From assembly GCF_046105845.1 (NCBI RefSeq), contig NZ_CP151004.1: a stretch of 64,000 nt of DNA, one strand, 5' to 3'. A program made the position numbers and the translations under genes. This DNA is from Escherichia coli (GTDB lineage Bacteria; Pseudomonadota; Gammaproteobacteria; Enterobacterales; Enterobacteriaceae). The notes under the pieces were generated by a model. The model had not been told where the DNA came from and searched no databases. It saw nothing but the letters and a program-made list of their open reading frames with translations. Below, one piece after another: positions 7,964 through 64,000 of the stretch (the stretch's first letter is position 1; each line of letters begins with the position of its first letter).

Positions 7964-8173
7964 ATTGTTACCATTTTTATCTATTACACGAGCAATTAGT
8001 TCGTCACGGTAAATAACATATTGATTAAGAACAAAATCTCAATACTTTTATTTCCGTCAAGCCCTAAAACATACTCTACTAAGAAAAAAACACTGAATGC
8101 TAAAACAGCAAAAAATGCTATTATCCAATTACCTGATGTCAGGTGCTCGTTGTTGAAAGGATGAGGATATTTT

Positions 8174-15655: not shown

Positions 15656-16666
15656 ATGAGCATCAAAAATTTACTTCCCGGCAAAATTGGCTTAGGCGGC
15701 GCACCACTCGGCAACATGTTCCGTGCCATTCCAGAAGAAGAGGCCCACGCCACCGTGAGCGAAGCCTGGAACCTGGGCGTGCGTTACTTTGATACCGCGC
15801 CGCTGTACGGCTCTGGCCTTTCTGAAATCCGCATGGGCGAAGCGCTGTCTCAGTATCCACGCGATGAATACGTTCTGAGCAGCAAAGTCGGCCGCATCAT
15901 GCTGGACGAAATGGAAGATCCGGCAAAACGTGATTTCGGTGAAAAAGGTGGCCTGTTCGAACACGGCCTGAAAAACAAAATTCTGAATGACTACTCTGCT
16001 GACGCCACGCTGCGCTCAATTGAAGACAGCCTGAAACGCCTGCAAACAGATCGTCTGGATATTGTCTGGATCCACGACCCGGCGCAGGACTTCTACGGTG
16101 ACAGCTGGCTGGAACAGTTCAACATAGCCCGTACCGGTGCGTTTCGTGCGCTGACGCGTTTGCGTGACGAAGGTGTGATTAAAGCCTGGGGACTGGGAGT
16201 GAATCGCGTCGAACCTTGCGAACTGACGCTGGCGCTGGACGAACCGAAGCCAGATGCTTTCCTGCTGGCGGGGCGTTATTCCCTGCTGGATCACGAACGT
16301 GCGCTGCAACGCCTGATGCCAGAAGCACTGGAACAGAACGTGGATATTGTTGTGGGCGGTCCGTACAGCTCTGGCGTACTGGCAGGCGGCGAGCACTTTG
16401 AATATCAGAAAGCTTCTGCGGCCATCCAGCAGAAAGTGGCGCAAATTAACACCATTGCCACACGTTTCAATGTGAACGTTAAAGCAGCTGCGCTGCAGTT
16501 CGCGCTGGCAAACCCGGCCGTTGCGGCGGTTATTCCTGGCTCCAGCCGTCCTGGCCGTATGGCAGAAGATCTGGCCGCACTGAATGCGCCTGTTCCGGCT
16601 GAATTCTGGGCAGAAATGCGCCGTCAAAATCTGGTTGCGGAAAACGCTCCGCTGCCGACCCGTTAA
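15656..16666 (+). CDS. Aldo/keto reductase family oxidoreductase (336 aa)
   Basis: ORF track; AKR fold hallmarks (FDTAPLYG, IVWIHDP). Confidence 0.8.
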   Translation: MSIKNLLPGKIGLGGAPLGNMFRAIPEEEAHATVSEAWNLGVRYFDTAPLYGSGLSEIRMGEALSQYPRDEYVLSSKVGRIMLDEMEDPAKRDFGEKGGLFEHGLKNKILNDYSADATLRSIEDSLKRLQTDRLDIVWIHDPAQDFYGDSWLEQFNIARTGAFRALTRLRDEGVIKAWGLGVNRVEPCELTLALDEPKPDAFLLAGRYSLLDHERALQRLMPEALEQNVDIVVGGPYSSGVLAGGEHFEYQKASAAIQQKVAQINTIATRFNVNVKAAALQFALANPAVAAVIPGSSRPGRMAEDLAALNAPVPAEFWAEMRRQNLVAENAPLPTR

Positions 16667-16685
16667 TCAACCTGGTGAGAAAACG

Positions 16686-17483
16686 ATGAAACTGGATCTG
16701 ACAGGTAAAGTCGCGGTGGTCAGCGGCTCAACCTCCGGCATTGGGCAGGGTATCGCCGCCGGACTGGCAAAAGCAGGCGCAACGGTGGTTGTCGTCGGCC
16801 GTAAACAGCGCGGCGTTGATGATGCCATGGCTGCGATTGCGGCACAAACTCCCACGGCGTCACTGCGCGGCGTGGTGGCCGATCTCAGCACCGAAGACGG
16901 CGTGGCTGCGCTGATCGCTGCAGTCCCAACGGCTGATGTGCTGGTCAATAATCTGGGCATTTTTAACGATAAAGATTTCTTTAGCGTTCCGGATGATGAG
17001 TGGATGCACTTCTATAACGTCAACGTCCTCTCCGGCGTTCGTCTGGCGCGTCACTATGCGCCAGGCATGACGGAACAGGGCTGGGGGCGGATTATCTTTG
17101 TCTCGTCTGAATCCGGCGTGGCAATTCCTGGCGACATGATCAACTACGGCGTCACCAAAGCCGCGAATCTGGCGGTTTCTCATGGTCTGGCGAAACGACT
17201 GGCGGGGACCGGTGTGACTGTCAACGCCATTCTGCCAGGGCCAACCTTTACCGATGGCCTGAAAGAGATGCTGGCGGATGCCGCTGCACAGTCGGGACGC
17301 AGTGCGCGTGAACAGGCCGATGAGTTTGTTAAAACCTCGCGTCCGAGCTCCATCATCCAGCGTGCGGCAGATGTGGAAGAAGTGGCGAATCTGGCGGTTT
17401 ATCTCGCGTCACCGCTTTCCTCGGCAACCACAGGGGCAGCCCTGCGCGTCGATGGCGGCGTCGTCGACACCCTGACAATGTAA
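16686..17483 (+). CDS. Short-chain dehydrogenase/reductase (SDR) family oxidoreductase
   Basis: ORF track 16584..17483; start at MKLDLTGKVAVVSGSTSGIGQ (Rossmann TGxxxGIG motif). Confidence 0.8.
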   Translation: MKLDLTGKVAVVSGSTSGIGQGIAAGLAKAGATVVVVGRKQRGVDDAMAAIAAQTPTASLRGVVADLSTEDGVAALIAAVPTADVLVNNLGIFNDKDFFSVPDDEWMHFYNVNVLSGVRLARHYAPGMTEQGWGRIIFVSSESGVAIPGDMINYGVTKAANLAVSHGLAKRLAGTGVTVNAILPGPTFTDGLKEMLADAAAQSGRSAREQADEFVKTSRPSSIIQRAADVEEVANLAVYLASPLSSATTGAALRVDGGVVDTLTM

Positions 17484-34819: not shown

Positions 34820-36406
34820 TTAATGCTCGCGGGTCTGGTGGAACTGAACGTCCGGATAACGTTCCTGCGCCAGGCGCAGGTTTACCATGCTGGTAGCGAT
34901 GTAAGCGAGGTTATCGCCGCCATCAAGCGCCAGTTGGCTTTCGTTCTTACGCTTGAACTCTTCGAATTTCTTCGCGTCCGCACATTCTACCCAGCGGGCA
35001 GTGGCAACGTTGACTGACTCATACACTGCTTCAACGTTGTATTCGCTCTTCAGGCGCGCTACCACCACATCAAACTGCAGCACACCAACCGCGCCAACGA
35101 TCAGATCGTTGTTGGAGATCGGACGGAACACCTGCACCGCGCCCTCTTCGGAAAGCTGTACCAGCCCTTTAAGCAGCTGTTTTTGCTTCAGCGGATCTTT
35201 CAGGCGGATACGACGGAACAGTTCTGGCGCGAAGTTCGGAATACCGGTGAACTTCATCATCTCACCCTGGGTAAAGGTGTCGCCGATCTGAATGGTGCCG
35301 TGGTTGTGCAGACCAAGGATATCGCCAGGATATGCTTCTTCAACGTGCGAACGGTCACCCGCCATAAAGGTCAGCGCGTCGGAGATCACCACATCTTTCG
35401 CAGTACGCACCTGGCGCAGCTTCATGCCTTTTTCATATTTACCGGACACCACACGCATAAACGCCACGCGGTCGCGGTGTTTCGGGTCCATGTTGGCCTG
35501 AATTTTAAATACGAAGCCGGTAAATTTGTCTTCGCTCGCCTCTACGGTACGGGTATCAGTCTGACGCGGCATCGGCGCAGGGGCCCACTCCACCAGGCCA
35601 TCCAGCATATGATCGACGCCGAAGTTACCCAGCGCAGTACCAAAGAATACCGGGGTGATTTCGCCCGCAAGGAACAATTCTTTGTCGAACTCGTTAGACG
35701 CGCCTTTCACCAGCTCCAGTTCATCACGCAGCTGCTGCGCCAGATCTTCACCAACCGCAGCGTCGAGATCCGGGTTATTCAGCCCTTTAACAATGCGGAC
35801 TTCCTGAATGGTGTGGCCTTTACCACTCTGATAAAGATAGGTTTCATCTTTATAAAGGTGATAAACGCCTTTAAACAGCTTGCCGCAGCCAATCGGCCAG
35901 GTGATCGGTGCACAGCCGATTTTCAGCTCGTTCTCAACTTCATCGAGCAGCTCCATCGGGTCGCGGATATCACGGTCAAGTTTGTTCATAAAGGTGAGGA
36001 TCGGCGTGTCGCGCAGACGGGTAACTTCCATCAGCTTACGGGTACGATCTTCAACACCTTTTGCGGCGTCGATAACCATCAGGCAGCAGTCCACCGCCGT
36101 CAGGGTACGATAGGTATCTTCCGAGAAGTCTTCGTGCCCCGGGGTGTCGAGCAGGTTAACCAGGCAATCGTGATACGGAAACTGCATCACAGACGTGGTA
36201 ATGGAGATCCCACGCTGCTTTTCCATCTCCATCCAGTCCGACTTAGCGTGCTGGTTGGAACCACGGCCTTTTACTGTACCGGCGGTCTGAATGGCCTGTC
36301 CGAACAGCAGCACCTTCTCGGTGATGGTAGTCTTACCGGCGTCCGGGTGAGAAATAATTGCAAAGGTTCTTCTTTTCGCTACCTCTGCGGCCAAAAGGCT
36401 TGTCAT
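34820..36406 (-). CDS. prfC: Peptide chain release factor 3 (RF3); first about 9 codons differ from the K-12 N-terminus I recall
   Basis: ORF track 34820..36433; start at [27 protein letters not shown]; rest of the protein matches E. coli RF3. Confidence 0.9.
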
Positions 36407-36560
36407 AATTGTTGTCTCTTTGATTATGTACAATCATATGTACAAAGAAAAATTCATGCCGCTGATTGTACATTTTGGAGGTATCAGAGCATAGCAGAAC
36501 ATGATCAGTAGGTGTATTTGTAGCCAAAGAACATTTGTACATGCAGCAATCTTTGTTCTA

Positions 36561-36610
36561 TTGACACTGTTTATTCATACAGTTAAAAATAACACTGTAT
36601 ACAAACACAG
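36561..36610 (+). promoter_or_regulatory. Promoter with two LexA (SOS) boxes upstream of the dinI-like gene
   Basis: -35 ttgaca at 36561-36566; CTGT-N8-ACAG boxes ctgtttattcatacag (36567-36582) and ctgtatacaaacacag (36595-36610). Confidence 0.65.
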
Positions 36611-36625
36611 TGTAGAGGGATTTTT

Positions 36626-36874
36626 ATGCGTATTGAGATCTGCATAGCCAAAGAGAAAATGACTAAAATGCCAAACGGTGCTGTGGATGCGTTAAAGGAA
36701 GAATTAACTCGACGCATCAGTAAGCGTTATGACGATGTAGAGGTGATCGTAAAAGCCACCAGCAACGATGGCCTTTCTGTTACGCGCACCGCCGATAAAG
36801 ATTCAGCTAAAACTTTTGTTCAGGAAACTCTGAAAGATACCTGGGAGTCTGCTGACGAGTGGTTTGTTCACTAA
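36626..36874 (+). CDS. DinI-family SOS-response protein (prophage-borne), 82 aa
   Basis: ORF track; [11 protein letters not shown]...[11 protein letters not shown] closely resembles DinI (MRIEVTIAKT...TWESADDWFV). Confidence 0.8.
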
Positions 36875-37300
36875 TTAACACGTAAAATCGGTAACGGCTG
36901 GAAATCATTCAATACTCGCACTATCGGAAGTTCACCAGCCAACCGCAGCACGTTCTTGCATACGACGTGTCTGCGGTTTTTCAACCATTCAGATACAGCA
37001 CTCTCATAACATTCATTCTTCCGCATTAAAGTATATATGACCATATCACCTTAATATTTTTCTTCTTCAGATAAAAATTGTTATCTATGTATACTTTTAA
37101 ACCGAATCCGTGTAGAGTCTCTACCTAAGTTAGTTCGCAGCTCCCCCTTCAGTTTGCGCCATTAACCTCCTGACTTTTGCCGCTATCTGTAAGCATTCCT
37201 GTATACCTGAAACTACAGGGTTCATCTACGAACTTTAAGAACACCCAGGATAAAAATTGTCAACTATATTATATATAACACCATACTAATTCGAGGCTAT

Positions 37301-37414
37301 ATGAACAGCATACTGATAATCACTTCACTACTTATCATATTCAGCATTTTTGGTCATGCTCTAATAAAATTAGGGATTGGCATATCCAATAACCCGGACA
37401 AAACAGATGTATAA
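37301..37414 (+). CDS. Candidate 37-aa hydrophobic peptide ([37 protein letters not shown]) with GAGG ribosome-binding site
   Basis: Manual ORF in AT-rich region; single predicted TM helix; below ORF track cutoff; coding status unproven. Confidence 0.3.
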
Positions 37415-37482
37415 GTCAACATATCCTGAATCAGACATACAATATTGCAATGAAAACCAATAATATTTTAAGGAATATCTTC

Positions 37483-37716
37483 ATGAAATCAAAAGACACC
37501 CTAAAGTGGTTCCCTGCGCAGCTTCCTGAAGTCAGAATTATCCTGGGAGATGCTGTCGTGGAAGTAGCAAAACAGGGAAGACCTATCAATACCAGAACAT
37601 TGCTTGATTACATTGAAGGAAACATAAAGAAAAAGTCATGGCTGGATAACAAAGAATTATTACAAACAGCGATATCAGTTCTTAAAGACAACCAAAATTT
37701 AAATGGTAAAGTGTAA
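37483..37716 (+). CDS. YnaE/YdfK-like small prophage protein (about 77 aa)
   Basis: ORF track 37450..37716; start at MKSKDTLKWFPAQLPEV; resembles Rac/Qin ynaE/ydfK as I recall them, located next to the pin-like gene as in those prophages. Confidence 0.5.
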   Translation: MKSKDTLKWFPAQLPEVRIILGDAVVEVAKQGRPINTRTLLDYIEGNIKKKSWLDNKELLQTAISVLKDNQNLNGKV

Positions 37717-38783: not shown

Positions 38784-39359
38784 CTACGGCAGTGCTGGCC
38801 ATTCAATATCCTGTGCAGTTGACGTATCAACACGGTTCAGCAATACCCGATACTTTTTCCATGCTTCCAGCAACGAGATTTCTTCCTCCGTTGCAATTTC
38901 CAGATCTGCAGCATCCTGAAGCGGCGCAATATGCTCACTGGCTACCTGCATCAGGCTGTTTTTTGTTTCTTCCGCCTCCCGGATCCGGAACAGTTTTTCT
39001 GCTTCTGCATCTTTCACCCAGGCTGTGCCGTTCCACTTCTGAAACTCCCCTTCCGGCGATAACCAGGTAACATTTTCCGGTAACGGACCGAGTTCAGAAA
39101 TAAATAACGCGTCCCCTGACGCTACGTCATAAACCGTTTTACCCCGATGGTCTTCAACGAGATGCCACGATGCCTCATCACTGTTGAAAACAGCCACGAA
39201 GCCTGCCGGAATATCTGGCGGTGCAATATCGGTACTGTTTGCTGGCAGACCTGTATGAGGCGGAATATATGCGTCACCTTCACCAATAAATTCATTAGTT
39301 CCGGCCAGCAGATTATAAATTTTTATGGTCCGTGGTTGTTCACTCATTCTGAATGCCAT
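38784..39359 (-). CDS. Tail fibre assembly protein (Tfa), 191 aa
   Basis: ORF track; immediately downstream of side tail fibre gene; Tfa-like size. Confidence 0.8.
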
Positions 39360-43442: not shown

Positions 43443-44948
<1,506 letters not shown>

Positions 44949-57451: not shown

Positions 57452-57775
57452 TTTGTCGCTCCATGCGTTTGCTCTTCACTTGCGGCTAAAAATATAACGT
57501 CAAATCACTCAGCATGAAAGAGTGAAAGTTTCAGCGCGTTTCCCTTACATAATCTGTCGTTTGTATTCTCTTCAGGCATACCGGAAAGACTAGGTATTGT
57601 CACACAACCAATACCATCGACAATCGAGATTTATATCTATTCGGTAATGTTTAAATATAACAAAACCCCGTAAAAACGAGGTTTATGGGTATTTTGTTGT
57701 CTGAAATTTATGCCGTTTAAAATCATGACGTTAGAAGCACTGTTTTTTAACGATGGCGACAAAATGGCGGCAGCG

Positions 57776-57991
57776 TCAAAGAGAGAGCGCCACCTGTCCT
57801 GATTTCATTGGATGCGGCTGAACCGGATTTGACTCTTTTGGCGTTGCAATCGAACGAACAAAAGTTTCATGGGTTACAAAAGTATGGCTGCAGTTAATAT
57901 TCTGGCACTGGTTGTAACGCTCTTTGGTCAATGAAGATACCTGAAAACTGCTGCGAGTATGGGCGGCACTTCCACACAGTGGGCAAATCAT
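57776..57991 (-). CDS. ogr: P2 Ogr-type zinc-finger late-gene activator (about 71 aa)
   Basis: ORF track 57776..58027; CPLC...CQNINCSHTF zinc-binding pattern matches Ogr (CPLC...CQNVNCSATF). Confidence 0.8.
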   Translation of the reverse strand: MICPLCGSAAHTRSSFQVSSLTKERYNQCQNINCSHTFVTHETFVRSIATPKESNPVQPHPMKSGQVALSL

Positions 57992-58084
57992 CATTTTTCG
58001 AGTTCTCCCCATTTTTGCTAAATTCACAATAATGATACCGCATTATTCCATTTTGCAAACTTAAAAGTTCTCCATTGCGAAGAA

Positions 58085-59185
58085 TCATTCCATTTCGAAA
58101 TCATCAATCCTCACTTCAAGCTCCAAACTGGTCGTAAAACCGTTATCCGGGCTGACGGTATGCGTCAGAGTCGTAATGGTCCATTCCGCATCATCTATCG
58201 GCTGTTTAAAACCACTGACCTTCACAGGCATTTCCGTGTAGAGATCTGCCCGCCCTTCTGCCAGTTGTAGCGAAAATGACGCAACGCCGCGTTGCAGGCG
58301 TTCCCACTGCATTTTCGCCGCTCGTTCGGCGTTGCTTCGGTTGGCATAAGTGCGATTAAGTACCAGCACGTTTTCATCCGTACCCACCAGGTAATCGCCC
58401 TGCTTCGCTTCTGGCTCTTTCTTCTGCTTCTTAGTTCTGCGCTTACGCTTCACCGTGGTGCTTTCTTTCTTCGCAGGTTCGCGGGTATGCAACCAGCTGG
58501 CAATTACGCCCGTGTAGGCTCCGCGATCTGCCAGGGTAAATCGGTGACTGTCGCCGTCCTTGCGTGTGATAGTGATCACTGGCAGAGGTTTACCAGTGGC
58601 GCTTTTGCCCTGCCCCTGCCGGATGAATAACAGATTGCCATTTTTCACCGACGCGATGGCACCGTACTGTCGCGCCAGCCGCATCAGAAAACTGCCGTCA
58701 CTCTCATTAGTCTGGTCTATATGCTCCACGGGCTTATCCGACAGGTCTTTACCCAGTGCCATCTTCAGCTTGTGCCGCGCGGCTATTTCCTTCACCACTT
58801 CCCCGACGGTGGTCTTATGCCACGATTTTTCACGGCGGGTATTCAGCGTTTCCCGAAAATCAGCACTTCGCGCCCGGATAGTCAGGCGGTCCGGTGCGCC
58901 AGTGTGTTCAATCTCGTCCACTGTGAATGCCCCTTTCGGGAAAAGCGGCTGCCCCTTCCAGCCCAGCGCCAGCGTAATAACCGCACCACGGCGCGGCAGC
59001 ACGATTTTTCCGTCAGCGTCATCCAGCTCCAGATCAAGCTGGTCCGCTTCAAAGCCCCGGTTATCCGTCAGCGTCAAACTCATCAGGCGGTTATCCAGCA
59101 CAGTGGTGATATCCCTGCCCTCAATACTGATGCTGAATGCGGGAGTTTTGTTGCCTTTGTTAAGCAGTTCAGAGCTGAAATTCAC
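58085..59185 (-). CDS. P2 gpD-like late control / tail protein D (366 aa)
   Basis: ORF track; position between U and ogr. Confidence 0.85.
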   Translation of the reverse strand: MNFSSELLNKGNKTPAFSISIEGRDITTVLDNRLMSLTLTDNRGFEADQLDLELDDADGKIVLPRRGAVITLALGWKGQPLFPKGAFTVDEIEHTGAPDRLTIRARSADFRETLNTRREKSWHKTTVGEVVKEIAARHKLKMALGKDLSDKPVEHIDQTNESDGSFLMRLARQYGAIASVKNGNLLFIRQGQGKSATGKPLPVITITRKDGDSHRFTLADRGAYTGVIASWLHTREPAKKESTTVKRKRRTKKQKKEPEAKQGDYLVGTDENVLVLNRTYANRSNAERAAKMQWERLQRGVASFSLQLAEGRADLYTEMPVKVSGFKQPIDDAEWTITTLTHTVSPDNGFTTSLELEVRIDDFEME

Positions 59186-59667
59186 GACAGCAGCCCTCCC
59201 ACCGTTTTACTGATATCGCTTAAGGCAGACGTTGCCGTGTCCTGCAGATTATTCAGTTGCGCACTGAGATCACCGAACATATCGGACAGGGATTCATCCA
59301 CTCGTTTGAGCGACAGGGTGAACTCAATCCGGCGCGGCATACCGTCGCGGAAAAACTCCGTTTTAGTCTGATTCAGTCCCTCAATCACATACATGCCGTA
59401 AATCGTGCCGCTGCCTTCAATCAGGGGCCATGCTTTCCCCTGTTCTGCCATCTGCTCCAGTGCCAGCAACGACAGCCTGCCGCCTGTTATCTCCGGCATA
59501 AGAACACCGGAAAGCGTCAGCATGTCGTTGTCCGGTCCCAGAAACTGCGTGGACGGACGACGATTTACCCGGCTGTTAGCCACATGTCGCCAGCTGCGCT
59601 GATACTGCAGTTCCTGATACGGCACGGTGCGCAGCATAAACACGTACAATCCCAGCACCATCATCAT
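59182..59667 (-). CDS. P2 gpU-like tail protein (161 aa)
   Basis: ORF track; overlaps D start and T stop. Confidence 0.8.
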   Translation of the reverse strand: MMMVLGLYVFMLRTVPYQELQYQRSWRHVANSRVNRRPSTQFLGPDNDMLTLSGVLMPEITGGRLSLLALEQMAEQGKAWPLIEGSGTIYGMYVIEGLNQTKTEFFRDGMPRRIEFTLSLKRVDESLSDMFGDLSAQLNNLQDTATSALSDISKTVGGLLS

Positions 59668-62600
59668 GCGTCGTATCCCCCCTGATCGCTGTAGTTACTC
59701 CTGGCTTTTGCCTTCAGCCTGCGTTCACGTTCATCAAGCTGGCGGGCCACCTCCCGCGCAATATCCTGCGCACTTTGTCCTGGCTGTGTCTGGATGATGA
59801 TCTGCGTCGGTGCTTCAATCCGTTGAACGGGCGGCACAGTGGCTGCACGACTCACCATCGCTTCACCGCCTTTCGCGGGAAGTGCCAAAGGGTGCAACGG
59901 TGGAAGCTCTGCTGGCGTAGCAGCAACACCCATCATTCCGGCAACAACGGCAGCCAGTGCAGCTGTATTTCTCCGGCTGGTCACATTTGCCGGGCCGTTA
60001 ACAATTTCCGGCCCGTTTTCACCGACGATGCCAAACTGCCCGCGCGGGATATACCCGCCGCTGTCATACATCCCCGCAAAGCCATATCCCCATGACGGAA
60101 AACCACCCGATGGCATCATCACTTTACCGTCTGCATTCACCGTCGCAGGTTGCTGACGCGTCACGCTTTCCGGCAGTTTCGCCTTTGCGGCCTCTTTACT
60201 GACAATGCCAAGTTTCTCCAGCAACCAGGAAACGCCGGATTTCAGCGAGTCCAGCGGATGCATGACCATATTCAGCCCTTCCGCCAGAGCCTCCCCGAAT
60301 CGTCGCCCCATTGCCGCTGCACTCTGCAGTTCGGCAGAGGTCGACTTAACGGGCGTCAGCAGATCAGTAAACCAGCCCCACAGCGCCTGTACTTTGTCGC
60401 CAATCCACTGGAACACAGGCTTAAGCGGTTCGAACGCGGCACTGACAGGACCTGCCGCCGCTTTGAATCCTTCCACCACGCCACCGAGAAATGCGGTGAT
60501 GGGCTGCCAGTATTTCCAGACAACCAGCGCCACACCCGCCAGTGCAGTAACCACAAGACCTATCGGACTGAGCAGAGCACCTAACAGACCAGAGACGGCA
60601 TACAGGGCAACGCGCAGCATCGCCAGTGGACCGGATGCGAGCATACGCAGCACCGTGCCTGTGGCAGCCAGTCCGCCGCGTAGTACCGCCAGTGGATTCA
60701 TAAACATCACAGCAACCGCACGTAAACCGGATAATCCAGACCGCAAAAGTGCAACCGGCGCACCTGCTACAGTTTTCAGGATATTTCCCGTCAGTAATGC
60801 CGTGCGGCGCAAAGACGACAACGGCGCAGTAAGTAAACCTGCAGCGTTGCCCGATGAAGCAAGCCCGCGTCGCAGCAGTGCCAGTGGTGCGCCAGCCAGC
60901 CAGGACAACGCGTTGCTGGTTCGGGTTACTGCTGCCGTAACGGAAGGTAACGTTTTGATACCCAGCACAGAGAATCCCAGACGGATGACTGCCAGCGGCC
61001 CCAGCACTGCAGCCAGCGCCACCGCTAAGGTGCCGAGGCCCACGGTAACGGCAGCTACCACAGCGGCTACTTTCATCAGAGTGCCCGTCAGTTCCGGGTT
61101 AGCTTCCACCCAGCGACGCAACGCCCCCGTGACGCTTTTCACCGTGTACAGAATATCCATCAGCGGCTGGCGCAGCGTTTCCCCCAGGCTGCTGAAGGTG
61201 TTCTGTGCTCCGGTTTTGACCAGCAACCACTGAGCAGAAAGTGAATCCTTGTTGATGTCGGATTCTTTCTGCATGGAACCGAGCGCATCATTGCCCGCTG
61301 TCAGTTTTAACTGGCGCTGAAGTTCCGGCAGGTTGTTTGCCAGTTTCGCTGCGTCATCGCCAAACTCTTTACCAAACAACATGGTCATGGCAGACAGGCG
61401 CTTATCCTGTGGCAGCGCATTCACCTTCTCCAGCACGCGCTGGATAGTTCCCATCGCATCCTTCGTCATCTGCTTTTCAATCACTTCTGGATTGAGTTTC
61501 AGCAGATTCATCCCTTCAAAGAAACTCTTGCTTTGCATGGTGGCAATGGACAATTCACGCACCATCGCGTTTGCTGCACTGGCTGCAACCTCAGGCGCAG
61601 CGCCGAGTGTCAGGAAGGTGGAACCCAGCGCCGCCGCTTTACGATAATCCAGACGGTCAGCCACACCGCCCAGGCGTTGCATGACATCAATGATGTCCGC
61701 CCCTTTCGACATGGCGTTATCATCCAGATAGTTCAGCGCATCACCGAGCTGCTCAATATTGCGGGTAGGGATTTTGTAGAGCTGGGCGATTTTCCCCAGA
61801 CTTTCTGACAGTTCATCCGCTGGCAGTTCAAAGGCTGTTGCCGCCTTTGCCGCCGTGCTGGCGAAGGCCAGCAGGTCACGTTTCTGATCTTCCCAGCTGT
61901 CGTCAGGGTTTGCGACGTTCATGCGCGCACCACCTTCAACCAGTGCAGCGAAGTCCACCGCACCGTTTTCCATCGGCAACTGTTCGCTGGCAGCCTTGAT
62001 GGCATCCTGCATTTCATAAAAACGTGCAGTGCGGTTGCCATTATCGTCACGCAGACCATTGACCTGCTTTGCCACACCTTTCATGGCATCTTCCATGCTG
62101 GTATAGCTTTTTACTGCCGCCATCACTGGCGCACCCATTGCCAGCCCTGCAGCCGTGGTGGTAGCTCCGGCACCTGCAATACGATCACGCACCTCCAGCG
62201 AACGGGCATAACTGGCACGCGCTGCATTCATCCTGCGCTGAGCTTCCCCCAGTCGCTTCAGCCGCGCCTCCTGTTTCGAAAGTTCCTGGTTATAACGTGA
62301 TGTTTCACGGGCTAAACGGGCAGTTGCTCCCGCATCGTCTTTCGCAGAAATTCCCGCCCGGTACAGTTCAGCACGCACAAGCGCCGTCTGCTGCTGCAGC
62401 TTTTTCTGGCGTTCTTCTAGGCGCTGAACAGCCAGCCGTTGACGGCCCAGAGCAACAACCTGACGTTGCGAAGGCGGCCCCATCGCTCCCAGTTCCTGAC
62501 TGAGCAAATTTGCACGCTGGCGGGCATAGTTCAGCCTGTCGCCTAATTTCTGATTTTCTGCCTGCAGCTTTCGGAAGCTGTCCAGACTGCTCCCGGCCTG

Positions 62601-62741
62601 ATCAAGCTGCTTTATTGCATCGCGGGATTTTTTGACAGCAGCAGCCAGTTCTCTTGAACTGGCCTGCGCAGATCGAAATGGGCGGGTGAGCTTGTCAACC
62701 GCATTAAGAATGACCTGCAGACGCAGGTTGTTATCACTCAT
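59664..62741 (-). CDS. P2 gpT-like tail tape measure protein (1025 aa)
   Basis: ORF track; long coiled-coil plus hydrophobic repeat region, follows E/E+E'. Confidence 0.85.
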   Translation of the reverse strand: MSDNNLRLQVILNAVDKLTRPFRSAQASSRELAAAVKKSRDAIKQLDQAGSSLDSFRKLQAENQKLGDRLNYARQRANLLSQELGAMGPPSQRQVVALGRQRLAVQRLEERQKKLQQQTALVRAELYRAGISAKDDAGATARLARETSRYNQELSKQEARLKRLGEAQRRMNAARASYARSLEVRDRIAGAGATTTAAGLAMGAPVMAAVKSYTSMEDAMKGVAKQVNGLRDDNGNRTARFYEMQDAIKAASEQLPMENGAVDFAALVEGGARMNVANPDDSWEDQKRDLLAFASTAAKAATAFELPADELSESLGKIAQLYKIPTRNIEQLGDALNYLDDNAMSKGADIIDVMQRLGGVADRLDYRKAAALGSTFLTLGAAPEVAASAANAMVRELSIATMQSKSFFEGMNLLKLNPEVIEKQMTKDAMGTIQRVLEKVNALPQDKRLSAMTMLFGKEFGDDAAKLANNLPELQRQLKLTAGNDALGSMQKESDINKDSLSAQWLLVKTGAQNTFSSLGETLRQPLMDILYTVKSVTGALRRWVEANPELTGTLMKVAAVVAAVTVGLGTLAVALAAVLGPLAVIRLGFSVLGIKTLPSVTAAVTRTSNALSWLAGAPLALLRRGLASSGNAAGLLTAPLSSLRRTALLTGNILKTVAGAPVALLRSGLSGLRAVAVMFMNPLAVLRGGLAATGTVLRMLASGPLAMLRVALYAVSGLLGALLSPIGLVVTALAGVALVVWKYWQPITAFLGGVVEGFKAAAGPVSAAFEPLKPVFQWIGDKVQALWGWFTDLLTPVKSTSAELQSAAAMGRRFGEALAEGLNMVMHPLDSLKSGVSWLLEKLGIVSKEAAKAKLPESVTRQQPATVNADGKVMMPSGGFPSWGYGFAGMYDSGGYIPRGQFGIVGENGPEIVNGPANVTSRRNTAALAAVVAGMMGVAATPAELPPLHPLALPAKGGEAMVSRAATVPPVQRIEAPTQIIIQTQPGQSAQDIAREVARQLDERERRLKAKARSNYSDQGGYDA

Positions 62742-63170
62742 CGTTGGCCCCGCTTCTCTGAATCGCTTTATACCGCCATTCCAGCACTTCGGTCAGCGGC
62801 ATAACGTCAGTAACGGATGGCGGCCAGTGAAAAATGGTGGCGATATCTGCCACCAGATCGTCAACCGTCAGGCTGTCGGTAAACCGGCAAGCACCGACTT
62901 CTTCAACAAAAAAGTGACAACCTCAACCGACATGGCAGTGAGATCTGCCGGGTCCATCTCTGCAATTTCCTGTGCAGTCAGTGCCGGACTGGAGATGCGG
63001 GGGATCACGGTCATCATCGCGTTTACATCCATATCCATAATGGCCTGCAGGCGTGTACCGCGCAGCGCACCGGACTGCGGTTTACGCAGCACAATTTCGG
63101 TGATTTCTGTTTTACCGCGCTTGATGGGGGTATCCAGTTGAATGGTCTTTTCAGTCTGCTTATCGCTCAT
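62734..63170 (-). CDS. P2 gpE / gpE+E' tail assembly chaperones (E = 62868..63170; E+E' by -1 frameshift at T-TTT-TTG, plus-strand 62907-62913, ending 62734)
   Basis: ORF track for E; manual translation shows -1 frame open from the slippery site to a TGA overlapping the T start codon. Confidence 0.75.
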
Positions 63171-63195
63171 TTTGCTGTCCTGTCAATTGGGTTCT

Positions 63196-63213
63196 GGCGC
63201 GGTATCCCGCGCC
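63196..63213 (-). terminator. Hairpin downstream of FII (P2-type attenuating terminator between FII and E)
   Basis: ggcgcggtatcccgcgcc GC-rich stem-loop 12 bp after FII stop. Confidence 0.5.
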
Positions 63214-63224
63214 GTTCAGATATA

Positions 63225-63740
63225 TCAGAGGCCGAGGGCGTTGCGGTGCGCTTCCATCAGGTCCACACCGTCCACAATTTCCACCATGTTGATAAGGTCC
63301 ACTTCATAGAGCACCTCACCATTGATGGTCAGCTTCGCGTAGCTGTTGGTACTGGTCACTTTGGTGGTGTTGCTTTCGCCCGTCTTCCACTCGCCGGAAT
63401 CCACTTCTTTGTGACGTCCACGCACGACAAGCTCCACGGCCTGCACTTCCGCGGTATCGTCACGCTGAATAGAGCCGGTAAAGCGCAGCTGGATGCCATC
63501 CACCGTGGCTTTACCCATCTGTTTAAACAGCAGCAATTCAGTACCACCAATGGAAAATTCTGTGTCCAGCGCACTGTCATCAAGCCCCAGATCCACATCC
63601 ACCGCACCCGGCATTCCGCCGCCGCGATACTTCTCATATTTGCGGGTAAATTTCGGCAGCGTCAGCGACTCAACGATCCCCTGCCAGTTGTTCCCGTCGT
63701 TAAACAGGTTCAGGTGTTTTAATTTGCGTGGTAAAGCCAT
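63225..63740 (-). CDS. P2 FII-like major tail tube protein (171 aa)
   Basis: ORF track; downstream of tail sheath gene. Confidence 0.85.
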   Translation of the reverse strand: MALPRKLKHLNLFNDGNNWQGIVESLTLPKFTRKYEKYRGGGMPGAVDVDLGLDDSALDTEFSIGGTELLLFKQMGKATVDGIQLRFTGSIQRDDTAEVQAVELVVRGRHKEVDSGEWKTGESNTTKVTSTNSYAKLTINGEVLYEVDLINMVEIVDGVDLMEAHRNALGL

Positions 63741-63749
63741 GTTGTCCCC

Positions 63750-64000
63750 TTACGCGCTGACCTGGCTGGCGAAATTCACCAGGTACTGATCGGTGATGCG
63801 CTGACGCAGCATCAGGTTTTCAAGTGGCGGCACTGGCGTGTAGTCGTAGTCGATGGTGAGTTTTCCGGCTTTCAGCGTGTCTTTGTCGTTCACCGACTCA
63901 TCCAGCCAGCAATCACCACCAATGAGATAGCCCTGACAGACCAGGCTGCGCATTTTGGCGCGGATACCTTCGATAATGTCGCGGGCCAGCGACGGGTTAA
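63750..64000 (-). CDS. P2 FI-like tail sheath protein, C-terminal end (gene continues beyond window)
   Basis: ORF track 63750..63953 and open frame to window edge; position upstream of FII. Confidence 0.7.

What the first reader, a model, noticed from the sequence alone, without database searches (positions are those of the whole stretch)
36561..36874. Prophage-borne dinI-like gene under a double LexA box
Two CTGT-N8-ACAG boxes overlap a consensus -35 element directly upstream of a DinI homologue at the prophage edge. A phage-encoded, SOS-induced DinI could modulate RecA activity (and thereby prophage induction or LexA/repressor cleavage) during DNA damage.
Basis: partly seen in the sequence, partly recalled or inferred. 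Interest (0 to 1): 0.35.

Follow-up and report, generated by a model that had tools for sequence, protein, structure and literature searches.

The report
SOS-controlled DinI gene cassette in prophage

Summary
The only two CTGT-N8-ACAG motifs in the 64-kb window lie 28 bp apart on a sigma-70 promoter. One fills the spacer after a consensus TTGACA; the other covers the expected transcription start. They sit just upstream of an 82-aa ORF (36626-36874) that is a DinI-family protein by Pfam, sequence match to PDB 1GHH/7YWA, and predicted fold. All eight RecA-contact residues of DinI are kept or conservatively replaced.

The unit is prophage-borne. The phage/chromosome junction is a 14-bp core inside prfC, about 200 bp away.

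- Homology among about 80 related loci runs from the -35 hexamer to an intrinsic terminator (36558-36982). This is a monocistronic moron cassette, not a Gifsy-type dinI-antirepressor operon.
- The two operators sit at -61 and -33 from the ATG. Divergent Klebsiella/enterobacterial phage lineages have boxes in the same positions.

LexA-controlled prophage dinI homologues are documented experimentally in Salmonella Gifsy prophages, where deleting them did not change induction. The full cassette occurs in 1,512 of 5,426 complete E. coli genomes.

Verdict: real, correctly interpreted, ordinary. LexA binding and the effect on RecA are inferred, not shown.

The parts
36345..36358 (.). att core (GGGTGAGAAATAAT), the prophage/chromosome junction inside prfC codons ~17-21. 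It marks the prophage edge about 200 bp left of the cassette.
   Evidence: Three-way alignment of the window, the S88 yjjG-int side and the empty K-12 site; two-way alignment with K-12.
36558..36982 (+). The whole dinI-like moron cassette: promoter, two operators, ORF and terminator.
   Evidence: blastn of the window against 80 IMG/VR loci. Alignments that cover the gene start at 36557-36565 unless the contig starts later, and most end at 36968-36982. Phage records with other integrases match from query position 119-122, which is window 36558-36561.
36561..36566 (+). -35 hexamer TTGACA (consensus).
   Evidence: Promoter scan, 10 of 12 matches. The same promoter is annotated in GenBank for phage mEp460.
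36565..36584 (+). LexA box 1 (distal), CACTGTTTATTCATACAGTT. Core CTGT-N8-ACAG is 36567-36582. It fills the -35/-10 spacer and starts at -61 from the ATG.
   Evidence: HI 4.5, best 20-mer in the window. Half-site columns never vary. A box at -59 to -62 occurs in divergent lineages.
36585..36590 (+). -10 hexamer AAAAAT with an 18-nt spacer. The alternative is TAAAAA at 36584-36589 with a 17-nt spacer.
   Evidence: sequence.
36593..36612 (+). LexA box 2 (proximal), CACTGTATACAAACACAGTG. Core is 36595-36610. It covers the expected transcription start and starts at -33 from the ATG.
   Evidence: HI 7.3, second best in the window. It is kept in BP-4795, where box 1 has decayed. A box at -32 to -36 occurs in 12 of 13 intact divergent genes.
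36614..36619 (+). Shine-Dalgarno AGAGGG, 6 nt before the ATG.
   Evidence: Sequence.
36626..36874 (+). dinI-like ORF, 82 aa plus stop.
   Evidence: Pfam DinI 1.2e-19. PDB 1GHH/7YWA E=7.9e-13 over the full length. PHROG 189 'RecA filament binding protein DinI' 4.4e-31. AlphaFold2 model matched to 1GHH and 7YWA with TM 0.74-0.78. dN/dS 0.02-0.20. RefSeq WP_001217539.1 'DinI-like family protein'.
36941..36981 (+). Intrinsic terminator: hairpin 36941-36978 and U run 36977-36981.
   Evidence: RNA fold -20 kcal/mol, z = -3.8, none of 200 shuffles folds as well. The homology of the cassette ends here. No + strand ORF of 20 aa or more starts between the stop codon and the hairpin.

Best explanation
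This is a self-contained, SOS-regulated phage moron.

Proposed mechanism (regulation and RecA binding are inferred from sequence, position and conservation):
1. In an undamaged lysogen, host LexA dimers occupy two operators. One lies between the -35 and -10 and one lies over the start site of a strong-(-35) sigma-70 promoter, so the gene is silent.
2. DNA damage activates RecA and LexA cleaves itself.
3. The promoter fires and makes a short monocistronic mRNA that ends at the hairpin-U5 terminator about 100 nt after the stop codon.
4. The product is an 82-residue DinI paralogue. [quoted passage not shown] A hydrophobic pocket (M15, L23, W73, W79, F80) would receive RecA loop L2, and an acidic patch (E26, D71, E78) would face RecA K232/R243/K245.
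5. The result is extra DinI dosage during SOS. This would stabilise RecA filaments and compete with the other groove clients (UmuD, LexA, lambda-type CI).

The net effect on the phage is the least certain step. I favour modest tuning of the timing or extent of RecA-dependent cleavage over an essential role in induction.
For: Identity of the protein:
- Pfam, PDB sequence match, PHROG and predicted fold all point to DinI.
- All eight experimentally validated RecA-contact residues of DinI (PMC9926225) are identical (5) or conservatively replaced (3).
- Purifying selection is strong, with dN/dS 0.02-0.20.

Operators:
- They are the two best LexA-like 20-mers in 64 kb and are placed on the core promoter.
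- 0 of 16 half-site columns vary among 15 upstream variants, against 16 of 49 other columns. By my hand calculation the hypergeometric p is about 0.005.
- In lineages whose proteins share only 60-68% identity with this one, boxes sit at the same distances from the ATG: -32 to -36 in 12 of 13 intact genes, and also -59 to -62 in 6.

Cassette and monocistronic nature:
- Terminator.
- Homology limits run from the -35 to the terminator.
- No downstream ORF.
- The cassette occurs behind different integrases.

Precedent:
- Gifsy dinI homologues carry a LexA box, and the tagged protein accumulates after mitomycin C (PMC3121763).
- They are induced 14-23-fold by nalidixic acid (PMC8072944).
Against: - No experiment on this cassette turned up in the searchable literature.
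- The -10 element is weak (AAAAAT).
- My heterology matrix rests on operator sequences recalled from memory.
- The protein scores below NCBIfam's equivalog cut-off for chromosomal DinI (72.5 against 111 bits). It is therefore a paralogue whose affinity for RecA could differ.
- In BP-4795 the W73 equivalent is R, so the pocket is not universally kept.
[quoted passage not shown] Any phenotype may be small or conditional.
Confidence: 0.8

Rival explanations
1. It is a Gifsy- or 186-type induction module. On this view the LexA-controlled promoter exists mainly to drive an antirepressor, either a small ORF downstream of dinI or a domain fused to it, which inactivates a non-cleavable prophage repressor.
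For: [quoted passage not shown] In phage 186 the antirepressor Tum carries a DinI-like half (PMC3121763). Some IMG/VR relatives carry the DinI C-terminus behind a different N-terminal region, with a strong LexA-like box elsewhere in the locus (L198-L199 and L209).
Against: - A strong intrinsic terminator follows the gene.
- No + strand ORF of 20 aa or more lies between the stop codon and the terminator.
- An in-frame TAA at 36590-36592 rules out an N-terminal extension (sequence).
- Homology among relatives stops at the terminator.
- The related prfC prophage of strain S88 has a lambda-type HTH + Peptidase_S24 repressor, which needs no antirepressor.
Confidence: 0.03
2. The two operators are also, or mainly, targets of a phage-encoded, non-cleavable LexA look-alike. 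A 108-aa protein made only of the LexA DNA-binding domain is encoded in the early operon of related prophages. It would re-silence the cassette and host SOS genes once lytic development starts.
For: The S88 prfC prophage encodes such a protein (L087:20687-21013). It matches Pfam LexA_DNA_bind at 3.4e-19 and is 51% identical to LexA residues 1-68, with S39, N41, A42 and E45 kept. That these are the base-contacting residues is from my own knowledge. The protein occurs in 61 phage records, including cdtI, mEp460, phiSTEC1575-Stx2k, PhiR47_1 and the Stx2c phages, all of which also carry the cassette.
Against: - The early region of the prophage in this window is not in the window, so the gene's presence here is unknown.
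- No Stx1a-named phage that carries the cassette appears among the hits for this protein, and SfV, SfII and SfIV, which have the protein, do not appear among the listed cassette hits. The link is therefore not obligatory.
- The protein has none of the LexA C-terminal domain that mediates dimerisation, so tight operator binding is uncertain.
- No literature on it was found.
Confidence: 0.1
3. The LexA boxes control the divergent prfC gene. Its native promoter and first 16 codons were replaced by phage DNA, so release factor 3 would become SOS-responsive in lysogens.
For: The prophage supplies everything upstream of prfC codon ~17. The boxes lie in the same 220-bp intergenic region as the new prfC upstream sequence.
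Against: - The boxes are 160-200 bp from the prfC start codon and sit exactly on the + strand promoter.
- No - strand promoter-like site was found between 36406 and 36560.
- The identical promoter-operator unit travels with dinI-like in phages that integrate elsewhere.
Confidence: 0.03
4. The palindromes are chance matches, or the gene is a decaying remnant.
For: Two CTGT-N8-ACAG hits per 64 kb are not rare in themselves: 19 of 100 shuffles reach that number. A 3' fragment of the cassette is scattered through nearly all E. coli genomes.
Against: - The boxes are clustered on a promoter.
- They are the top-ranking operator-like sites in the window.
- Their half-sites never vary and their positions recur in distant lineages.
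- The ORF is intact and under purifying selection.
Confidence: 0.01

Closest known systems
Chromosomal DinI of E. coli K-12 (b1061; PDB 1GHH, and 7YWA in complex with RecA filament)
   Same: Same fold and size. The two are 49% identical. The RecA-contact pocket and acidic patch are kept. Both have a LexA-repressed sigma-70 promoter and a monocistronic transcript.
   Different: This one is a paralogue: it scores below NCBIfam's equivalog cut-off. It is carried on a mobile cassette. It has two operators flanking the -10, where K-12 dinI has one operator across the -10. It also has a two-residue insertion after K9 and a different loop at residues 37-40.
[quoted passage not shown] 2011, PMC3121763; Merida-Floriano et al. 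2021, PMC8072944)
   Same: All are prophage-borne DinI paralogues directly under LexA, with the proximal box about 15-19 bp from the ATG. The Gifsy genes are experimentally SOS-induced.
   Different: The Gifsy genes have one box, lie 1.3 kb downstream of the replication genes, and head an operon with an antirepressor and irsA. Here there are two boxes, the gene is monocistronic, and it sits next to the att site beyond the tail genes.
Identical or near-identical annotated genes: RefSeq WP_001217539.1 'DinI-like family protein'; phage cdtI gp30; mEp460_021; dinI of CP-1639, YYZ-2008, BP-4795 and many Stx1/Stx2 phages
   Same: The same cassette at 90-100% nucleotide identity. The cdtI phage and the Stx1a/Stx2c phages also share the adjacent att arm, so they are prfC-integrating relatives.
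   Different: Nothing essential. In mEp460 and 1720a-02 the cassette directly follows the integrase gene instead of facing the att site.
Tum of coliphage 186, and the split tum/dinI genes of PSP3 and Fels-2
   Same: A LexA-controlled phage gene with a DinI-like sequence.
   Different: Tum is 146 aa, with an antirepressor half fused to the DinI-like half. Here there is no extension and no antirepressor.

Membership tests
DinI family (Pfam PF06183; RecA-filament-binding protein) | Sequence match to the family model above the curated threshold over the whole ~80-aa protein | tested here: met
   PF06183 E=1.2e-19, 70.8 bits against a cut-off of 24.2, profile positions 1-63 of 63. PHROG 189 4.4e-31.
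DinI family (Pfam PF06183; RecA-filament-binding protein) | DinI fold: a three-stranded sheet packed against two helices, with a long C-terminal helix | tested here: met
   AlphaFold2 model, mean pLDDT 76.7, with elements E2-8, H19-32, E39-45, E50-55 and H59-80. The Foldseek top two hits are 1GHH and 7YWA, TM 0.74-0.78, probability 1.00. The next hit has E=0.05.
DinI family (Pfam PF06183; RecA-filament-binding protein) | RecA-contact residues: pocket L13, L21, W71, W77, F78 and acidic E24, E69, D76 (PMC9926225) | tested here: met
   They align to M15, L23, W73, W79, F80 and E26, D71, E78: five identical and three conservative.
DinI family (Pfam PF06183; RecA-filament-binding protein) | Orthology with chromosomal DinI (NCBIfam equivalog NF007893) | tested here: not met
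   72.5 bits against a cut-off of 111. It is a paralogue ('DinI-like'), not the housekeeping gene.
DinI family (Pfam PF06183; RecA-filament-binding protein) | Physical binding to and stabilisation of RecA-ssDNA filaments | not testable with these tools
   Needs purified protein, with EM or ATPase/coprotease assays.
LexA (SOS) regulon of Enterobacteria | Operator of the form TACTGT-(AT)4-ACAGTA with a heterology index in the range of proven sites | tested here: met
   HI 4.5 and 7.3 against a median of 6.5 for the training sites. These are ranks 1 and 2 in the window. The matrix comes from sites recalled from memory, and the K-12 dinI operator scores 4.7 as a control.
LexA (SOS) regulon of Enterobacteria | Operator overlaps the core promoter or the start site | tested here: met
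   Box 1 lies in the -35/-10 spacer and box 2 begins 5 nt after the -10.
LexA (SOS) regulon of Enterobacteria | Operator conserved in orthologous promoters | tested here: met
   0 of 16 half-site columns vary. Boxes sit at the same distances from the ATG in divergent lineages.
LexA (SOS) regulon of Enterobacteria | LexA binding in vitro or in vivo, and lexA-dependent induction by DNA damage | not testable with these tools
   No ChIP, EMSA or expression data for this cassette were found in the searchable literature. Only the Gifsy homologues have been tested.
Phage moron (autonomous cargo cassette) | Own promoter and own terminator flank a gene that is dispensable for the phage cycle, and the homology limits coincide with them | tested here: met
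   Promoter, terminator, homology from 36558 to 36982, and different neighbours in different phages. That the gene is dispensable is inferred from its absence in many lambdoid phages, not tested.
Gifsy-type LexA-controlled dinI-antirepressor operon | A small antirepressor gene co-transcribed downstream of the dinI homologue | tested here: not met
   A terminator follows at 36941-36981, and there is no + strand ORF of 20 aa or more before it.
Gifsy-type LexA-controlled dinI-antirepressor operon | A prophage repressor that lacks an autocleavage domain | tested here: inconclusive
   The immunity region is outside the window. The related S88 prfC prophage has an HTH + Peptidase_S24 repressor, but the window's prophage matches S88 only in parts.
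186 Tum-type antirepressor-DinI fusion | An N-terminal antirepressor domain fused to the DinI-like half (about 146 aa) | tested here: not met
   The ORF is 82 aa, and an in-frame stop at 36590-36592 lies upstream of the ATG.

The most novel reading that the evidence does not exclude
The cassette may be more than spare DinI dosage. It could be a timing device by which a lambda-type prophage, whose repressor is cleaved in the same RecA groove, gates its own induction or that of co-resident prophages. Tight double-operator repression would delay expression until SOS is deep. The product would then compete with CI, UmuD and LexA for RecA filaments. In relatives that carry it, a phage-made non-cleavable LexA DNA-binding-domain protein would shut the cassette and the host SOS regulon down again once the lytic programme is running. 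A related possibility follows from the report that DinI expression enhanced Zorya II defence against T3 (preprint PMC13192584): the moron might change the lysogen's resistance to other phages.
Probability: 0.12. Interest if true: 0.5.

Novelty: new member of a known kind. Interest (0 to 1): 0.2.

Why it matters
It matters little as a discovery. The gene is already annotated as DinI-like in RefSeq and in many phage records, and LexA control of prophage dinI homologues has been shown in Salmonella.

Two points have modest value:
- The cassette is very common. The full version is in 28% of complete E. coli genomes, with up to 9 matching places per genome. It rides on Stx-, Cdt- and effector-carrying phages. 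If it shifts RecA activity even slightly, it would affect toxin-phage induction and SOS mutagenesis under quinolone treatment.
- The clean boundaries and the conserved two-operator positions make it an easy, well-defined test object.

Tried and rejected
- tRNA scan of the window: none found, so the att site is not a tRNA.
- Rfam: nothing in 36000-37500. The only hits are IS009, isrC and the thr leader elsewhere in the window.
- S88 as a stand-in for the whole prophage: rejected. The window's backbone is 96-98% identical to S88 and its prophage matches S88 only in parts. No complete genome in the collection covers 80% or more of 39001-64000. S88's immunity region is therefore used only as a related example.
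- A profile query (A4) to reach distant loci returned only 96-100% relatives, because the best 80 are kept. A divergent query worked instead.
- Literature searches for LexA-like phage proteins, for O157 DinI-like locus tags and for LexA ChIP-seq on prophage dinI gave nothing usable.
- The '- strand terminator' called at 36613-36592 is just the palindromic box 2 followed by the A/T-rich -10. I do not count it as a feature.
- I looked for a - strand promoter for prfC in 36406-36560 and found none at the scan's threshold.
- I estimated S88 coordinates to annotate the third-best LexA-like site. The estimate was off because the window is not S88. A direct search placed the site between creA and robA.

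Full report
**What is in the sequence.** The window is E. coli. The stretch 36400-37200 is 100% identical to S88, APEC O1, O145:H28 and other strains. RefSeq annotates prfC and a 'DinI-like family protein' there.

CTGT-N8-ACAG occurs exactly twice in 64 kb, at 36567-36582 and 36595-36610. A consensus TTGACA (36561-36566) precedes box 1, and AAAAAT (36585-36590) follows it after an 18-nt spacer. Box 2 begins 5 nt after the -10, over the expected start site.

An AGAGGG ribosome-binding site comes next, then an 82-codon ORF at 36626-36874. One detail needs correcting: only box 1 touches the -35.

**Is it more than chance?** Two matches per window are not rare in themselves, but their placement is. 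I scored every 20-mer with a Berg-von Hippel heterology index built from 30 K-12 LexA sites that I wrote from memory.
- The two boxes are the best and second-best sites in the window (4.5 and 7.3). The next best scores 10.4.
- The training sites have a median of 6.5.
- Twenty shuffled windows gave one hit at or below 7.3 in total.
- The proven K-12 dinI operator scores 4.7 with the same matrix.

Among 15 indel-free variants of the 65 nt upstream of the ATG, taken from related viral contigs, none of the 16 half-site columns varies. Sixteen of the other 49 columns do. By hand calculation the hypergeometric p is about 0.005.

**The protein.**
- Pfam DinI E=1.2e-19.
- Full-length match to PDB 1GHH/7YWA, E=7.9e-13.
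- PHROG 189 'RecA filament binding protein DinI'.
- An AlphaFold2 model (pLDDT 77) whose only significant PDB matches are DinI alone and DinI bound to RecA, TM 0.74-0.78.

The cryo-EM study of RecA-DinI names the contacts (PMC9926225). RecA loop L2 inserts into a pocket formed by L13, L21, W71, W77 and F78. E24, E69 and D76 face a basic patch on RecA. Here these positions are M15, L23, W73, W79, F80 and E26, D71, E78.

The protein scores below NCBIfam's cut-off for the chromosomal DinI equivalog, so it is a paralogue. Pairwise dN/dS against four relatives is 0.02-0.20, so the protein is under selection.

**Prophage edge.** Alignment with the empty K-12 site and with the far end of the S88 prophage places the junction at a 14-bp core (GGGTGAGAAATAAT, 36345-36358) inside prfC. 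Everything to the right is phage DNA.
- It begins with a substitute prfC 5' end: [16 protein letters not shown] replaces [17 protein letters not shown].
- Next comes a 200-bp arm with four TGTACA repeats. Four more lie on the integrase-side arm in S88.
- Then come the cassette, ynaM, ydfK, a Pin-type recombinase, and tail, head and terminase genes.

prfC is a published phage insertion site (PMC8065619).

A hairpin with a U5 tail lies at 36941-36981 (-20 kcal/mol, z = -3.8). No + strand ORF of 20 aa or more lies between the stop codon and this hairpin.

Homology between the window and 80 related loci starts at 36557-36565 and mostly ends at 36968-36982. Phage records with unrelated integrases match from 36558-36561 onward. 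In mEp460 and 1720a-02 the unit sits directly behind the integrase gene, and GenBank annotates the same promoter for mEp460. The unit is therefore a mobile promoter-operators-gene-terminator cassette, which is a classic moron, and it is monocistronic.

**Family-wide regulation.** In BP-4795 the distal box has decayed while the proximal one is intact. A Klebsiella phage has one box.

I then collected loci related to the Klebsiella-phage protein. Their proteins are roughly 60-68% identical to the window's, and synonymous sites are saturated. Twelve of 13 intact genes have a LexA-like box starting at -32 to -36 from the ATG. Six also have a second box at -59 to -62. The window's boxes start at -33 and -61. 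Two operators at these positions are therefore a trait of the family, not of this copy. K-12 dinI itself has one operator across the -10.

**Comparison with what is known.** Lemire et al. showed that the Gifsy dinI homologues lie next to a LexA box, and that the tagged Gifsy-2 protein accumulates after mitomycin C. They also showed that the LexA-controlled operon is dinI-antirepressor-irsA, and that non-polar dinI deletions in Gifsy-1 and Gifsy-3 do not significantly change induction (PMC3121763). Merida-Floriano et al. measured 14-23-fold induction by nalidixic acid (PMC8072944).

The present locus differs in three ways: it has no antirepressor, it has two boxes, and it lies at the att end. 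The related S88 prophage has a lambda-type HTH + Peptidase_S24 repressor. The window's own immunity region is not in the window, and its prophage matches S88 only in parts.

I found no experiment on this E. coli cassette. There are only association hits: a 'DinI-like family protein' group linked to drug-susceptible ST95 (PMC10783064), and a 'viral region' gene linked to later quinolone-resistance mutations (bioRxiv 2023.06.20.545734).

**Distribution.** The full cassette (80% or more of its length) is in 1,512 of 5,426 complete E. coli genomes. Matching places per genome have a median of 2 and a maximum of 9. A 3' fragment (36817-36968) is in nearly all genomes, including K-12 C600 and BL21, and is unannotated.

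**Mechanism and confidence.**
- Shown by computation: DinI identity, retention of the contact residues, operator quality, operator position and conservation, the terminator, cassette mobility, and prophage location.
- Inferred: LexA occupancy, SOS induction, RecA binding, and any effect on repressor, UmuD or LexA cleavage.

I put 0.8 on 'LexA-repressed monocistronic moron encoding a RecA-groove-binding DinI paralogue'. The physiological pay-off is open, and the Gifsy result argues that it is subtle.

**Verdict.** The finding is real and correctly read, but it is an ordinary, widespread and already annotated kind of phage cargo. Interest 0.2; new member of a known kind.

Noticed in passing
window 36345-36406 (with L087:9358-9426 and K-12 L002:2915-2975): The prophage integrates inside the prfC coding region at a 14-bp core. 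It replaces the first 16 codons ([16 protein letters not shown] for [17 protein letters not shown], one residue shorter), the ribosome-binding site and the whole upstream region. In lysogens prfC must therefore be expressed from phage-supplied DNA or by read-out from the prophage. No clear - strand promoter was found in 36406-36560.
   Followed up: partly
window 36427, 36439, 36467, 36536; L087 9587, 9599, 9608, 9638: There are four TGTACA repeats on each att arm, which makes 8 in about 440 bp. The whole 64-kb window has only 8. They are probably arm-type binding sites for the integrase, which has an Arm-DNA-bind_3 domain. The last repeat is 20 bp from the -35 of the dinI-like promoter.
   Followed up: partly
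L087:20687-21013 (E. coli S88 prfC prophage; outside the window): A 108-aa early-operon protein consists only of the LexA DNA-binding domain, with no cleavage or dimerisation domain. It is 51% identical to LexA residues 1-68, with S39, N41, A42 and E45 kept. It belongs to PHROG 362 and occurs in 61 phage records, including cdtI, mEp460, SfV and Stx2c phages. It could act as a non-cleavable SOS repressor. I found no literature on it.
   Followed up: partly
L087:16882-16901 (S88 prophage, inside the cI-like repressor gene 16418-17110, - strand): A near-perfect LexA box (TACTGTATGTAAAAACAGTA on the coding strand, HI 3.6) lies in the linker codons (SNTVCKNSI) between the HTH and Peptidase_S24 domains of the repressor gene. 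Its 12 specified bases are expected about 0.003 times by chance in 26 kb (my estimate). It could be an internal SOS-controlled promoter or a roadblock.
   Followed up: no
window ~57679-57700, and 57776-64000: The lambdoid late region stops abruptly just beyond the terminase genes (the S88 match ends at 57697). A P2-like prophage tail end (late control D, tail tube, tape measure) starts at about 57679. One prophage is therefore nested in or abutting the other, and the two homologies overlap by about 18 bp, which may be an att core. No complete genome in the collection has this junction over 80% or more of 39001-64000.
   Followed up: partly
window 36817-36968: The last ~58 nt of the dinI-like ORF and its 3' flank match at 85-88% in nearly all E. 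coli genomes, including K-12 C600 and BL21. Nothing is annotated there. These are probably decayed cassette remnants in cryptic prophages.
   Followed up: no
window 8091-8110: The third-best LexA-like 20-mer in the window is CACTGAATGCTAAAACAGCA (HI about 10.4), in the creA-robA intergenic region. It is borderline and I do not know it as a LexA target.
   Followed up: no
window 38818-39016 (-) and 43759-43881 (+): There are Rfam hits to IS009 (221 bits) and to the Hfq-binding sRNA isrC (150 bits) inside the prophage tail-fibre and lom region.
   Followed up: no
window 36983-37716: After the terminator come a promoter-like site (37066-37095), the 37-aa YnaM-family ORF (37301-37414, Pfam 5e-27) and the cold-shock gene ydfK. 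The layout is the same as at the ends of the K-12 Rac and Qin prophages (from my own knowledge).
   Followed up: no
L198-L199 and L208-L212 (IMG/VR loci): In some relatives the DinI C-terminal half follows an unrelated upstream sequence. In some of them (L198, L199, L209) a strong LexA-like box (HI 2.4-3.6) lies elsewhere in the locus. These may be Tum-like fusions or recombinant genes.
   Followed up: no
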